From Patescibacteria group bacterium (GTDB lineage: Bacteria; Patescibacteriota; Patescibacteriia; UBA2591; UBA6264): a stretch of 36,205 nt of DNA. The notes beneath the pieces were generated by a model that saw only the letters and a list, made by a program, of their open reading frames with translations, did not search any database and was not told the DNA's origin. Every line of letters begins with the position of its first letter. Positions within the stretch are counted from its first letter, which is position 1. The position numbers and the translations under genes were made by a program. Positions 1-2,620 of this stretch are shown here, piece after piece. The stretch is taken from assembly GCA_021735685.1 (NCBI GenBank), contig JAIPGN010000006.1, forward strand, positions 1 through 36,205, written 5' to 3'.

Positions 1-471
1 GTTTTTGCTCAAAATCTAAAATCTCAAATAAAAGGACTGGAGGAAAAATTGGATACTTTGCTTGACGCTCATTTGGACGGCACAATTACAAAAGAAGAAT
101 ACACCGCCAAAAAACAAAAAATCCTCAACCAAAAGATTGGGATTTCTGAAAAATTGAAGGATTTTGAGCAAAACGGCAATCATTGGCTCGAACCTGCCAA
201 AAAATTCATTTTAGACAGTAAACAAGCCGAAATTATCGCTTTTCAGGAAAATCTTTTTGAGAAAAAAGATTTTCTAAAAAAGATTGGCTCGAACCGAATT
301 TTGCGGGAACGGGAATTGGTTTTTGAGCCACGCGGAGCGTGGCAAATCCTTTTAAAATCAGACCTTAGCACCCGCAGGGCGCGTGCCGAGGCGCTTTGCG
401 CCGAGGCAACAAACGCCGAACATACAATTTGGCTCCGGAGGTGGGATTCGAACCCACGACAAACTGGTTAA
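1..471 (+). CDS. C-terminal part of a probable large serine (site-specific) recombinase; 5' end outside the window
   Basis: The frame is open from base 1. The coiled-coil segment LDTLLDAHLDGTITKEEYTAKKQKI resembles C-termini of large serine recombinases. The ORF runs antisense into the tRNA-Asn 3' half (WLRRWDSNP). No catalytic domain is visible in the window. Confidence 0.6.
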   Translation, partial: VFAQNLKSQIKGLEEKLDTLLDAHLDGTITKEEYTAKKQKILNQKIGISEKLKDFEQNGNHWLEPAKKFILDSKQAEIIAFQENLFEKKDFLKKIGSNRILRERELVFEPRGAWQILLKSDLSTRRARAEALCAEATNAEHTIWLRRWDSNPRQTG

Positions 472-505
472 CAGCCAGTTGCTCTGACCCCTGAGCTACT
501 CCGGA
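430..505 (-). tRNA. tRNA-Asn (GTT), CCA encoded
   Basis: Minus strand reads TCCGGAG TA GCTCAGGGGTCAGAGC A ACTGG CTGTTAA CCAGT TTGTC GTGGG TTCGAAT CCCAC CTCCGGA GCCA, a complete 76-nt cloverleaf. Confidence 0.97.
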
Positions 506-513
506 TCATTAAT

Positions 514-777
514 TTAAGATTGATGATTTTTGATTGATGATTTATTTTTTATATATTCACGACCAGAACCTGATTTGAGATATTTTTCGCGTTCACGAGC
601 GATAATTCTATTTTCCAATTTTTCAAAATAAATCAATTTAAATGGACCTCTATTCTTTGTTGAAGGCGTAGAGGCAACACCATTATTGTGTTCTTTAACC
701 CTTCTTTCTATATTATTAGTCATCCCGACATAAAACTTACCGTCTTTCTCGCTTTTCAAAACATAGACGAAATACAT
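514..777 (-). CDS. Small GIY-YIG nuclease family protein
   Basis: YFVYVLKS...KFYVGMTNNIERRVKEHN...TKNRGPFKLIYFE...AREREKYLKSGSGR; 87 aa, YhbQ/UPF0213-like. Confidence 0.9.
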   Translation of the reverse strand: MYFVYVLKSEKDGKFYVGMTNNIERRVKEHNNGVASTPSTKNRGPFKLIYFEKLENRIIAREREKYLKSGSGREYIKNKSSIKNHQS

Positions 778-786
778 AGTTAATTA

Positions 787-894
787 TTAACAGCCAGTTG
801 CCCCTCCTTCAGCGAGTGAACTCGCTTACGGCGGGTAAATCTGACCCCTGTCCTCCTGTGAGGCGGATCAGCCTTTGGCTGAAGCTACTCCGAA
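787..894 (-). pseudogene. 5' half of tRNA-Asn (nt 1-38) interrupted by two hairpin insertions
   Basis: 787-801, 840-850 and 883-894 join to match 468-505 with one mismatch. Insertions lie at 802-839 (38 nt) and 851-882 (32 nt). Confidence 0.9.
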
Positions 895-897
895 ACA

Positions 898-953
898 GTA
901 ATTTATGATTTACGATTTAAGAATTATGATTGATTATTTTTAATTGACGATTT
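898..953. repeat. Degenerate heptamer tandem array (minus strand AAATCRT-like, 8 units)
   Basis: Minus strand: aaatcgt caattaa aaataat caatcat aattctt aaatcgt aaatcat aaattac. A 5-unit copy lies at 509-543. Confidence 0.8.
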
Positions 954-1283
954 GCGTGAAGAAACCATAATCGCCACAATCTCGTTAGTTTCTTTCAATA
1001 AAGCATTCAAAAAATCGCTTTTTATTATAGCATTCTTTTTAATAATTTCAAGCCAAAAGGCTGATTCATCAGCTTCTTCAATAACAACGCCAAGCTTTGA
1101 TATAAACTCCGCTTTTGATCGAGAACGACAAACGGCTCTATAGTTAGCTCCAACCGAAGTTCCGCTTCTAATTAATTGATTTCCTATCACTCGCCCCTCC
1201 ATTGTATTTGGCAACATTTTCACTAATTTAATTATACTCAAGGCATATTCTTTTGTTCTCTCCTTCAAAATTTCCGAGTTCAT
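924..1283 (-). CDS. Four helix bundle protein (23S rRNA intervening-sequence protein / bAvd-like family)
   Basis: QLIRSGTSVGANYRAVCRSRSKAEFISKLGVVIEEADESAFWLE is the family signature; 119 aa. Confidence 0.92.
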   Translation of the reverse strand: MNSEILKERTKEYALSIIKLVKMLPNTMEGRVIGNQLIRSGTSVGANYRAVCRSRSKAEFISKLGVVIEEADESAFWLEIIKKNAIIKSDFLNALLKETNEIVAIMVSSRKSSIKNNQS

Positions 1284-1320
1284 AATTAAATCTTAAATTT
1301 TAAATCTTAAATTTTAAATT
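1284..1320. repeat. Heptamer tandem array between the rpoD stop and the four helix bundle start
   Basis: + strand: aattaaa tcttaaa ttttaaa tcttaaa ttttaaa. Confidence 0.8.
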
Positions 1321-2620
1321 AATAATAGTCTTGAATCTTTTTAATGCCTTTTAATTGCCGTATTCTCTCCAACGCCCTGGCTTCAATCTGCCTAATCCTT
1401 TCCCTGGTTACTCCAAAAACCTGCCCCACCTCTTCTAAAGTGTGAGCCACTCCATCTGATAAACCAAACCTGATATCTAAAATTTTCTGCTCCCGCGGAG
1501 AAAGATCAACAATAATCTCCTTAATATATTTACGCAATAAAACTAAAGCTGCAGCTCGATCTGGGGCCATAGTCTTGATATCCTCAATGAAATCAACTAA
1601 TTCCGACTCTTTGCCGTCATCATCGCCTCCAATAGTAGTCTCTAAAGAAATAACATCTTGAGAAATTTTCATTAAATAACGAGCTTCACTGGTTTCAATC
1701 TCTAGCTCAGCAGCTATCTCTTCTGGCGTCGGCTTTCTTCCTAATTGTTGTAATAAATAGCGGTCAGCGCGATGAAATTTTCCTAAAATTTCAACTACAT
1801 GTACTGGGATTCGAACAGTTCGTGATTGGTCAGCCAAAGATCTAATAATGGCCTGCCGAATCCACCAAGTGGCATAAGTAGAAAATTTATAACCCCTTTT
1901 CCAATCATATTTTTCTACAGCACGAAATAAACCAATATTGCCTTCTTGAATTAAATCTAAAAAAGTTAAACCATAACCAGCAAACTTTTTGGCAATGCTA
2001 ACCACTAACCTCAAATTAGCTTCAATTAATTTTTGGGCCGCCTTTTTGTCCCCAGCATCTTTTTTTTGAGCCAATTCTACCTCTTCCTCAGAATCAATTA
2101 AAGGCACGTGACCAATTTCTTTAAGATACATTTGAATAGAGTCAGCCGAAAGCTTAGTGAGGTCAAAAAAGAGCTCTCCTTTCTTTTCTTTTTTTTCCGA
2201 AGAAAGGCTTAAAAGATCATTATCAGATTCCATCACTTGAATACCAGCTTTCTTTACCTCCTCTAGAAAGGCCTCGTAATCGGGCAAATATTTTTCTACT
2301 CGTGGAAAAGCATAAAGAATTTCATTTTGAGTGATAAATCCCCTTTGTTTTCCTTTAGCCATCAACTCTTGGGCTGCTTCTTGGGGCCACTGAAAACGAG
2401 AAGCTCTTTTCTTTTTTGGAGAAGTCTTTTTTGCTTTCTTTTTTTGAGGTTTCTTAATAACCTTCTTACTTGTTTTTTTGCTTTTTGAGCCAGCTTTCTT
2501 TTTTAAAGAAACACTAGCCTTGGTTTTCTTGCGAGAAGAAACCTTTCTAGCTTTTTTTCTCTTAGAAGAAGAGAACTTCTTATTTTTTTTACTCTTAGAA
2601 GAAGAGGTTTTCTTTTTCAT
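1319..2620 (-). CDS. rpoD: Primary RNA polymerase sigma-70 factor with a Lys/Ser-rich N-terminal extension
   Basis: Region 1.2 [49 protein letters not shown] and [20 protein letters not shown]; lies downstream of dnaG. Confidence 0.95.

What the first reader, a model, noticed from the sequence alone, without database searches (positions are those of the whole stretch)
802..882. Two tiny hairpin elements inserted cleanly into the dead tRNA half
Seen: the intact tRNA 300 bp away acts as the empty-site reference, so the insert boundaries are readable to about 1 nt. Insert 1 (802-839) is CCCTCC-ttc-AGCGAG-tgaa-CTCGCT-tac-GGCGGG-taaa. Insert 2 (851-882) is TCCTCCT-gtg-AGGCGGA followed by TCAGCC-ttt-GGCTGA. 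No target bases are lost and there is no clean target-site duplication. The inserts are 11 nt apart and share an imperfect CCTCC/GGCGG stem with the mismatch at the same position. Inference: these are ultra-short mobile palindromes, possibly created or mobilised by the adjacent GIY-YIG nuclease, by analogy with REP/RAYT pairs. Alternatively they are scars that destroy the nuclease's target site.
Basis: partly seen in the sequence, partly recalled or inferred. Interest (0 to 1): 0.8.

Follow-up and report, generated by a model that had tools for sequence, protein, structure and literature searches.

The report
Mobile mini-hairpins in displaced tRNA copy
Two small GC-rich hairpin insertions in a leftover half of a tRNA gene are worn copies of tiny mobile DNA palindromes that travel with very small nuclease genes in ultra-small bacteria, a pairing this scan has met before but that I could not find in print.

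Summary
Window 787-894 is a copy of tRNA-Asn positions 1-38 (37 of 38 bases identical). It is interrupted cleanly by a 38-nt insert (802-839) and a 32-nt insert (851-882), and it sits upstream of an 87-aa GIY-YIG gene and the intact tRNA.

Insert 2 is a slightly decayed member of a 30-nt double-hairpin family. The family has 197 copies in 34 of 61 relatives, and the exact 30-mer occurs across phyla. A 96%-identical environmental strain has the precise empty site (joint 850->883).

Insert 1 has one homologue, at the same tRNA position in another genus.

All 10 upstream partial tRNA copies found beside GIY-YIG genes in relatives carry GC-rich hairpins. Hairpin families co-occur with GIY-YIG genes genome by genome (37/5 versus 3/16). 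Hairpin type follows nuclease clade.

Most hairpin copies are nevertheless far from any nuclease gene, and no cleavage was tested. The hairpins are therefore well supported as mobile, while "mobilised by the GIY-YIG nuclease" remains an inference, by analogy with Ssn/SRM. The "scar that destroys the target" reading is not supported.

This scan has reported the same cassette and hairpin family on other DNA.

The parts
430..505 (-). Intact tRNA-Asn(GTT), the working gene
   Evidence: ARAGORN; Rfam tRNA 72.3 bits
514..777 (-). 87-aa single-domain GIY-YIG nuclease ORF; its last ~12 codons are encoded by the duplicated tRNA leader
   Evidence: ORF list; Pfam PF01541 E 1.1e-16, residues 1-73; nearest solved structures are UPF0213 proteins 1zg2 and 1ywl, then SLX1
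787..801 (-). Displaced tRNA-Asn copy, positions 24-38 (ends in the anticodon loop)
   Evidence: 15 of 15 identical to 468-482
802..839 (-). Insert 1: outer CCCGCC/GGAGGG stem around an inner AGCGAG-TTCA-CTCGCT hairpin, at tRNA position 23/24
   Evidence: Homologue TTTACCTGCCGGAGGAGGG at the same tRNA position in L093. The inner hairpin motif is not a repeat family
840..850 (-). Displaced tRNA-Asn copy, positions 13-23
   Evidence: 11 of 11 identical to the intact gene
851..882 (-). Insert 2: decayed 30-nt double-hairpin element (TCAGCC-AAA-GGCTGA + TCCGCC-TCACA-GGAGGA), at tRNA position 12/13
   Evidence: Family counts. The intact form of the same sequence occurs in four places in G055, G050 and G031. 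Precise empty site in run X5, joint 850->883
883..894 (-). Displaced tRNA-Asn copy, positions 1-12 (one change at position 2)
   Evidence: alignment
895..960 (-). Duplicated tRNA leader with two promoter-like sites (960->933 and 950->923); overlaps the 3' end of the four-helix-bundle gene
   Evidence: Alignment; blast 928-953 vs 518-543; consensus scan only
924..1283 (-). Four-helix-bundle (23S rRNA IVS protein family) gene, a second insertion between rpoD and tRNA-Asn
   Evidence: Pfam PF05635; TIGR02436; relatives have rpoD directly followed by tRNA-Asn

Best explanation
The two inserts are worn copies of tiny GC-rich hairpin repeats. They sit in the displaced 5' copy of tRNA-Asn that forms the upstream arm of a small GIY-YIG nuclease cassette lodged at the tRNA gene.

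Insert 2 is a member of a 30-nt double-hairpin element (15 + 15 nt). Insert 1 is a second hairpin of the CCYGCC...GGRGGG kind with a nested inner hairpin.

Shown here: these hairpins are discrete insertions, they belong to multi-copy families, and they come and go between close strains. They are near-obligatory in the partial tRNA copies beside GIY-YIG genes. Their type follows the nuclease clade.

Inferred: the single-domain nuclease recognises such hairpins in single-stranded DNA and nicks beside them, as Ssn nucleases do with their SRM/NTS hairpins. Repair of those nicks then copies hairpins, and the cassette, into exposed loops of folded single-stranded DNA. The loops of tRNA genes would be favoured landing sites. 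Insertions survive only in redundant tRNA copies, in spacers, or in frame in proteins. Interrupting the direct repeat also protects the cassette from deletion by recombination.
For: 1. Anatomy and clean boundaries.

2. The same design occurs at a second locus of this genome. At C3:14740-15175 a tRNA-Phe 5' copy carries two tandem copies of a perfect 20-nt palindrome in the D loop, followed by a GIY-YIG ORF (44% identical) and then the intact tRNA-Phe.

3. In 30 GIY-YIG loci of relatives, 13 have a tRNA beside the gene. Of those, 10 have an upstream partial tRNA copy, and all 10 carry GC-rich hairpin inserts at D-loop, anticodon-loop or T-arm positions.

4. 13 of 41 perfect GC-rich hairpins in those 30 loci lie in the 100 nt before the GIY-YIG start. 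That stretch is about 3% of the sequence.

5. Insert 2 family. The core pattern gives 197 hits in 34 of 61 genomes, against 5 hits for the reversed control. The undecayed form of the window's own sequence occurs in four places in three other genomes, G055, G050 and G031. The exact 30-mer occurs in at least 120 stretches from many phyla.

6. Mobility. Run X5 holds a contig joining 850 to 883 (skips 32, side 37, depth 7.0, about 96% identical over 354 nt). It also holds the filled form. Relatives show clean 10-residue gaps against this genome's orthologues in 4 cases: L126, L129, L146 (10 aa each) and L147 (13 aa).

7. The same double hairpin sits at the same tRNA-Asn position 12/13, upstream of a GIY-YIG gene, in another genus (L097). 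It sits at a different position in a third genus (L093).

8. Genome level. GIY-YIG present with repeats present in 37 genomes, GIY-YIG present without repeats in 5. GIY-YIG not found with repeats present in 3, not found without repeats in 16 (Fisher p 7e-8, Spearman 0.64; kin are not independent). Within single genera (g1, g25) the contrast holds.

9. Nuclease tree. The five nucleases with the 20-nt palindrome form one clade (93/82) although they sit at three different tRNAs in three host families. All hairpin labels together need 6 changes, against a shuffled mean of 15.3 (0 of 200 as low).

10. Precedent. Ssn nucleases are 94-aa single-domain GIY-YIG proteins that cut single-stranded DNA beside hairpin repeats flanking their genes (PMC11893778, sections read).
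Against: - Both inserts are single-copy in the window's genome, which has no intact double-hairpin copy.
- Most copies are far from any GIY-YIG gene. Only 2 of 30 double-hairpin loci in relatives and 2 of 80 cross-phylum loci (random expectation 0.58) lie within 300 nt of one. Only 6 of 27 palindrome loci have a GIY-YIG gene within 1.5 kb.
- Three genomes have repeats but no GIY-YIG match (G013, G019, G036; 77-88% complete). Five have GIY-YIG but none of these repeats.
- The window's closest nuclease homologue (L002, 56% by tblastn) is flanked by a different hairpin.
- The clade/hairpin agreement could simply reflect cassettes inherited or transferred as units.
- Membership in the Ssn family (CDD cd10448) could not be tested. 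The nearest solved structures are UPF0213 proteins.
- A hydrolytic nuclease alone cannot explain how a hairpin is copied to a new site.
- The inner hairpin of insert 1 is not a repeat family: 8 hits against 10 control hits.
Confidence: 0.6

Rival explanations
1. The hairpins are autonomous selfish mini-repeats spread by host replication or repair, or by some other enzyme. They merely accumulate wherever DNA is dispensable, and the dead tRNA half and the GIY-YIG cassette are such a place. The nuclease has no part in their movement.
For: - Most copies are not near GIY-YIG genes.
- The exact 30-mer occurs in phyla far from this one.
- 34 of 80 copies sit in frame inside long ORFs, 33 of them in the frame reading SAKGGSASGG or SARGGSAFGG.
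- Three genomes have repeats without a GIY-YIG match.
Against: - 10 of 10 partial tRNA copies beside GIY-YIG genes carry hairpins. 5 of the 7 copies of the 20-nt palindrome in this genome lie in about 40-nt tRNA part-copies. That is far above any random intergenic density.
- Genome-level co-occurrence holds.
- Nuclease clade and hairpin type agree across different tRNAs and host families.
Confidence: 0.25
2. The hairpins act at the RNA level. Transcribed from the old tRNA promoter, they form the 5' leader of a GIY-YIG mRNA-tRNA co-transcript. There they stabilise the message, block misfolding of the half-tRNA with the real tRNA, or mark processing sites.
For: - Promoter-like sites lie upstream of the fragment, and no terminator-like site lies before the tRNA.
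- Folding is somewhat better on the sense strand, where the shared mismatch is G.A.
- Compensatory changes keep the stems: TCCGCC/GGCGGA becomes TCAGCC/GGCTGA.
Against: - The same elements occur in both orientations, inside ORFs and in spacers.
- There is no Rfam match in 1-1500 apart from the tRNA.
- A strain lacking insert 2 exists.
Confidence: 0.1
3. The inserts are repair scars that inactivate the nuclease's target in the old tRNA copy.
For: Every partial copy is interrupted. The interruptions fall in structured parts of the tRNA.
Against: - The whole target sequence survives in the adjacent intact tRNA, so nothing is protected.
- Scars would be idiosyncratic, yet the same 30-mer and 20-mer recur letter for letter at unrelated sites and in unrelated genomes.
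Confidence: 0.05

Closest known systems
Ssn nucleases with SRM/NTS hairpin repeats (Chenal et al. 2025, PMC11893778; sections 7, 10, 12 and passages read)
   Same: A small single-domain GIY-YIG protein (94 aa there, 87 aa here). GC-rich hairpin repeats beside the gene and multi-copy in the genome. Genome-level co-occurrence. An IS-like repeat-gene-repeat layout, seen here in the non-tRNA cassettes.
   Different: The paper's main text has no occurrence of tRNA or Patescibacteria. Here the hairpins lie only 5' of the gene, inside a partial tRNA duplication. The hairpin sequences differ. CDD family membership and single-strand cleavage were not tested.
REP elements and RAYT transposases (recalled; mentioned in the discussion of PMC11893778)
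   Same: Short palindromes are spread through the genome, with one or a few enzyme genes flanked by them.
   Different: RAYTs are Y1 (HUH) transposases that can cut and rejoin DNA. The enzyme here is a hydrolytic GIY-YIG domain.
Rickettsia palindromic elements (passage in PMC1166351: 728 RPEs, 85 within ORFs, 3 in RNA genes)
   Same: Palindromic repeats that invade coding and RNA genes and are tolerated in frame.
   Different: By recall, RPEs are several times longer. Here the unit is 30 nt (10 codons), and the element occurs across phyla.
Double-hairpin elements of fungal mitochondrial DNA (passages in PMC10085805 and PMC3787672, citing Paquin et al. 2000, which I did not read)
   Same: GC-rich elements made of two adjacent hairpins in AT-rich genomes. 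They are found in spacers and rRNA genes, are identical across species, and are thought to be mobile.
   Different: Organellar rather than bacterial. Sequence relatedness was not tested, and no linked nuclease is established in what I read.
Phage T4 SegB, a free-standing GIY-YIG homing endonuclease in a tRNA gene cluster (PMC2330249; search listing and start of abstract only)
   Same: A GIY-YIG gene lodged among tRNA genes and inherited preferentially.
   Different: By recall, SegB is a larger protein with a DNA-binding part that cuts double-stranded DNA. No hairpin repeats or tRNA part-duplication are described in what I saw.

Membership tests
Ssn (site-specific single-stranded nuclease) / SRM system | Single-domain GIY-YIG protein of about 100 aa | tested here: met
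   87 aa; Pfam PF01541 covers residues 1-73; no other domain found
Ssn / SRM system | Assignment to CDD family cd10448 or the Ssn clade | not testable with these tools
   No CDD library and no SsnA sequence are available here. The nearest solved structures are UPF0213 proteins. NCBIfam gives only sub-threshold hits.
Ssn / SRM system | Gene flanked by 20-50-nt hairpin repeats | tested here: inconclusive
   Two hairpin inserts lie 5' of the gene and none 3', where the tRNA sits. Across 30 loci, hairpins are enriched in the 100 nt upstream.
Ssn / SRM system | The same repeats are multi-copy in the genome | tested here: not met
   Both window inserts are single-copy in this genome. The criterion is met for the sister cassette's 20-nt palindrome (7 copies) and in relatives.
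Ssn / SRM system | Cuts single-stranded DNA next to the hairpin, and cuts neither double-stranded DNA nor RNA | not testable with these tools
   Needs purified protein
REP/RAYT | Associated enzyme is a Y1 (IS200/IS605-like) transposase | tested here: not met
   The adjacent ORF is GIY-YIG
MITE | Terminal inverted repeats plus a target-site duplication | tested here: not met
   The inverted repeats make up the whole element. There is no duplication at either insert, nor at L093.
30-nt double-hairpin element family (named in this scan, not in print) | Two adjacent 6-bp GC-rich stems with 3-nt loops, 15 + 15 nt, core GCC-N3-GGC-N6-GCC-N3-GGC | tested here: inconclusive
   Insert 2 has both hairpins, and the first unit is exact. 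The second unit has a 5-nt loop and one stem mismatch, so it fails the strict pattern (G000 has 0 hits). It aligns column for column with L093 and L097 copies.
tRNA group I intron | Group I ribozyme fold between the tRNA halves | tested here: not met
   There is no Intron_gpI match in window 1-1500 at E up to 10. A relative's tRNA-Asn does contain one.

The most novel reading that the evidence does not exclude
The mini GIY-YIG nuclease and its hairpins form a self-contained mobile system that relies on a nuclease alone. The protein reads hairpins in single-stranded DNA, and the folded loops of tRNA genes serve as landing pads. The 30-nt double hairpin is its non-autonomous offshoot. That offshoot has crossed phylum boundaries and persists in essential proteins as a ten-residue Ser/Gly/Ala linker. 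This would be a new mode of DNA mobility, and a natural source of paired hairpin/nuclease specificities.
Probability: 0.25. Interest if true: 0.85.

Novelty: new variant of a known kind. Interest (0 to 1): 0.6.

Why it matters
If the small GIY-YIG proteins really act on these hairpins, three things follow.

- A very large family of uncharacterised mini-nucleases gains a function and a set of natural substrates.
- The partial tRNA duplications common in ultra-small bacteria get an explanation.
- The clean ten-codon insertions seen in their housekeeping genes get an explanation.

The window adds a rare piece of direct evidence: one copy caught present and absent in near-identical wild strains, with boundaries that match the tRNA reference to the base.

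It is not a first sighting. Other sessions of this scan reported the same cassette and hairpin family on other genomes.

Tried and rejected
- **Rfam scan** of window 1-1500 at E up to 10. Only the tRNA scored; nothing covers the fragment.
- **Own-genome blast** of both inserts. Self-hits only.
- **Inner hairpin of insert 1** (AGCGAG-N3-5-CTCGCT) as a repeat family. 8 hits in 8 of 61 genomes against 10 reversed-control hits, so it is not a family.
- **NCBIfam** gave only sub-threshold hits for the nuclease.
- **RNA evidence.** No RNA holder was listed for the locus, so expression could not be examined.
- **Weak joints in the laid contigs**, not used as evidence: 506->859 (X3, X5, side 27), 544->906 (X2, side 27), 542->1287 (X5, side 21).
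- **Orientation of the G005 double hairpin.** I first read it as inverted relative to the window's. The alignment and the loop sequences (RAA then TCN) show the same orientation, and I withdrew that reading.
- **Copy-level association of the exact 30-mer.** With GIY-YIG genes across phyla it is weak: 2 of 80 against 0.58 expected. With tRNAs it is modest: 6 of 80 against 2.4 expected (11 of 500 random draws as high), and 7 of 30 against 2.4 (1 of 500).
- **Literature.** Full-text searches found no description of a tRNA-lodged GIY-YIG cassette with hairpins, of the 30-mer, or of the 20-mer:
  - GIY-YIG + tRNA + palindrome + Patescibacteria
  - GIY-YIG + tRNA gene + Candidate Phyla Radiation
  - GIY-YIG + inverted repeats + IVS / four-helix bundle
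  - the literal strings SAKGGSASGG, the 21-mer and the 20-mer

  Supplements were not seen. The Ssn paper's supplementary lists of homologues and motifs could bear on whether such bacteria were included.

Full report
**The locus**

The window is the first 36 kb of contig 1 of a 611-kb, 35% GC genome in 7 contigs. I take it to be of the ultra-small Patescibacteria/CPR kind from its size and from the records that share its repeats.

On the minus strand the order is as follows.
- rpoD, 2620-1319.
- A four-helix-bundle gene of the 23S rRNA IVS protein family, 1283-924.
- A leader with promoter-like sites.
- A copy of tRNA-Asn positions 1-38, broken by two inserts, 894-787.
- An 87-aa GIY-YIG ORF, 777-514.
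- The intact tRNA-Asn(GTT), 505-430.

In relatives, rpoD is followed directly by tRNA-Asn after about 70-130 nt (L089, L090, L091, L092, L093, L094, L104). The four-helix-bundle gene and the nuclease cassette are therefore both additions.

**The observation**

The three tRNA pieces are 12, 11 and 15 nt long and collinear. They are identical to the intact gene except at position 2, and together they cover positions 1-38 with nothing missing.

The duplication runs on into the leader for at least 45 nt. As a result the nuclease ORF and the four-helix-bundle ORF end in the same tail, KSSIKN(H/N)QS.

Both are single-copy in this genome.

**The design recurs**

A second GIY-YIG gene of this genome (C3:14875-15102, 44% identical) abuts tRNA-Phe. 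It is preceded by a tRNA-Phe 5' copy whose D loop holds two tandem copies of a perfect 20-nt palindrome.

That palindrome has 7 copies in the genome at up to 2 mismatches. Five of them lie in tRNA 5' part-copies. Two of those part-copies have no nuclease ORF left: C6:22426 before tRNA-Thr, and C6:8172-8211 before tRNA-Ile.

Homologues of the nuclease occur in 42 of 61 related genomes. Of the 30 loci fetched, 13 have a tRNA beside the gene.
- 10 of the 13 have an upstream partial tRNA copy, and all 10 copies are interrupted by GC-rich hairpins.
- One (L017) has the partial copy downstream, also interrupted.
- Two (L008, L016) have hairpins but no partial copy detectable by 8-mers.

Perfect GC-rich hairpins pile up in the 100 nt before the nuclease start, 13 of 41. 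The 17 loci without a tRNA mostly show terminal inverted repeats around the ORF. In several, an ATG or TATG is repeated at a host start codon.

**What insert 2 is**

On the sense strand it reads TCAGCC-AAA-GGCTGA followed by TCCGCC-TCACA-GGAGGA.

The same two-hairpin unit, undecayed (second loop TCT, second stem GGCGGA), occurs in four places in genomes G055, G050 and G031. The core pattern of the family gives 197 hits in 34 of 61 relatives, against 5 for the reversed control. The exact 30-mer, allowing two degenerate letters, occurs in at least 120 stretches. These come from many Patescibacteria lineages and from Ignavibacteria, Omnitrophota, Gammaproteobacteria, Planctomycetales and others.

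Of 80 such copies, 34 lie inside long ORFs. 33 of those are in the one frame that reads SAKGGSASGG or SARGGSAFGG. Four relatives' genes with the element align to this genome's orthologues with a clean gap at the element: 10 residues in L126, L129 and L146, and 13 in L147.

Another genus (L097, G005) has the element at the same tRNA-Asn position 12/13, in the same orientation, before a GIY-YIG gene. A third genus (L093, G011) has it in the anticodon stem of a tRNA-Asn part-copy that has no nuclease ORF. In the same-genus genome G001, the leader plus tRNA positions 1-12 are duplicated and then run into a stretch of N. The break falls at the same position, but what follows cannot be read.

**Direct evidence of gain or loss**

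Contigs of four public metagenome runs were laid on window 200-1500.

Run X5 holds a 392-nt contig that matches 883-1236 with 13 differences. It then continues directly at 850 for 37 letters, into the 3' part of insert 1. This is the joint '850->883, skips 32, ends TC..GA', at depth 7.0. The same run holds the filled form (814-888, depth 7.3).

The junction has flanks specific to the displaced copy on both sides, so it cannot come from the intact tRNA. A close strain therefore has insert 1 but lacks insert 2, with exactly the predicted boundaries. These are assembled contigs from one study, and the result should be confirmed by targeted sequencing.

**What insert 1 is**

Its only relative found is TTTACCTGCCGGAGGAGGG. 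That sequence sits at the same tRNA position (23/24) in L093 and lacks the inner hairpin. A long CCCGCC...GGCGGG hairpin sits at the same position of a tRNA-Phe copy in L019. The inner AGCGAG/CTCGCT hairpin is not a repeat family. Insert 1 is therefore less well explained than insert 2.

**Link to the nuclease**

The association is seen at three levels.
- Genome by genome. Presence of the double hairpin or the 20-nt palindrome goes with presence of a GIY-YIG match: 37 and 5 against 3 and 16. The same contrast holds inside genera g1 and g25. Kinship inflates the p-value.
- On a tree of 37 nucleases. The five associated with the 20-nt palindrome form one clade although they sit at tRNA-Phe, tRNA-Leu and tRNA-Gln in three host families. 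All hairpin labels together need 6 changes, against 15.3 when shuffled. This shows that nuclease and hairpin travel together. It does not show that one acts on the other.
- Copy by copy. Most hairpins are far from any nuclease gene. That is also true of SRM/NTS and REP repeats.

**Comparison with what is known**

The closest described system is Ssn/SRM. Ssn proteins are 94-aa single-domain GIY-YIG enzymes that cut single-stranded DNA beside hairpin repeats flanking their genes (PMC11893778). That paper's main text has no occurrence of tRNA or Patescibacteria.

In form the double hairpin resembles the double-hairpin elements of fungal mitochondria (PMC10085805, PMC3787672). In behaviour it resembles the Rickettsia palindromic elements (PMC1166351).

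Four full-text searches found no description of this cassette or of these sequences.

Other sessions of this scan have described both the tRNA-lodged cassette and the ten-codon double hairpin on other genomes. Those notes gave me the Ssn and double-hairpin-element leads. I re-tested their main claims here on independent loci.

**Verdict**

The inserts are worn members of mobile hairpin families. This is very likely for insert 2 and likely for insert 1. Their tie to the GIY-YIG cassette is strong as an association but unproven as a mechanism. I put 0.6 on the combined reading. Within it, I put about 0.85 on 'mobile hairpin family members' and about 0.4 on 'moved by this kind of nuclease'.

Noticed in passing
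window 1-471 (+), overlapping tRNA-Asn 430-505: This is the C-terminal end of a large serine recombinase, cut by the contig end. Its last codons are the complement of the tRNA's 3' half. Homologues overlap tRNA-Asn in the same way in L089, L090, L098, L100 and L104; L108 also holds a 66%-identical homologue, but it lies about 1.2 kb from that locus's tRNA-Asn. The full-length L089 protein has Recombinase and Zn_ribbon_recom domains. An integrative element therefore probably uses the 3' end of this tRNA.
   Followed up: partly
window 924-1283 (-): The four-helix-bundle (23S rRNA IVS protein family) gene is also an insertion relative to the rpoD-tRNA-Asn synteny of relatives. It ends in the same leader-encoded tail as the nuclease, KSSIKNNQS against KSSIKNHQS. 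Four more copies of the family are in the genome.
   Followed up: partly
L156 (G004:C1:137600-139000), positions 405-1030: In a genome of the same family, tRNA-Asn is split in the anticodon by a roughly 540-nt group I intron (Rfam RF00028, 54.9 bits, E 7.5e-13). The intron carries a 123-aa ORF with a CxxC...CANCHRELH motif and no Pfam match. A second kind of mobile element therefore uses the same tRNA.
   Followed up: partly
own genome C6:22400-22470 and C6:8150-8228: These are hairpin-bearing tRNA 5' part-copies with no nuclease ORF: tRNA-Thr(GGT) with one 20-nt palindrome and a 34-nt spacer, and a tRNA-like 5' part with two palindromes before tRNA-Ile(TAT). They are probably remnants of cassettes that lost the gene.
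   Followed up: partly
L004, L006, L007, L011, L013, L022, L030; own genome C3:212800-213060: GIY-YIG genes that are not at tRNAs are bracketed by 15-20-nt terminal inverted repeats, for example CCCGCCnAAATT ... AATTTnGGCGGG. In several, ATG or TATG is repeated on both sides at a host gene's start codon, an IS-like layout.
   Followed up: no
L157-L236 (genome contigs): The exact 30-nt double hairpin occurs letter for letter in genomes labelled as many different phyla. 34 of 80 copies are inside long ORFs, and 33 of those are in one reading frame (SAKGGSASGG or SARGGSAFGG).
   Followed up: partly
own genome C2:85150-85330: This is a cluster of GTCATTGCGAG-type short repeats around a 2-mismatch copy of the 20-nt palindrome. 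It is a different repeat family and is unexplained.
   Followed up: no
window 506/859, runs X3 and X5: Contigs at depth about 15 join the 5' end of the intact tRNA to the middle of insert 2, skipping 352 nt including the nuclease gene. The shorter side is only 27 letters, so this may be a deletion allele or an artefact.
   Followed up: no
L089 (G001), L092 (G030), L012, L026: Runs of N lie exactly where a duplicated tRNA leader or partial tRNA copy begins. Cassettes of this kind may often be hidden in gaps or masked stretches, and counts of 'empty' sites are upper bounds.
   Followed up: no
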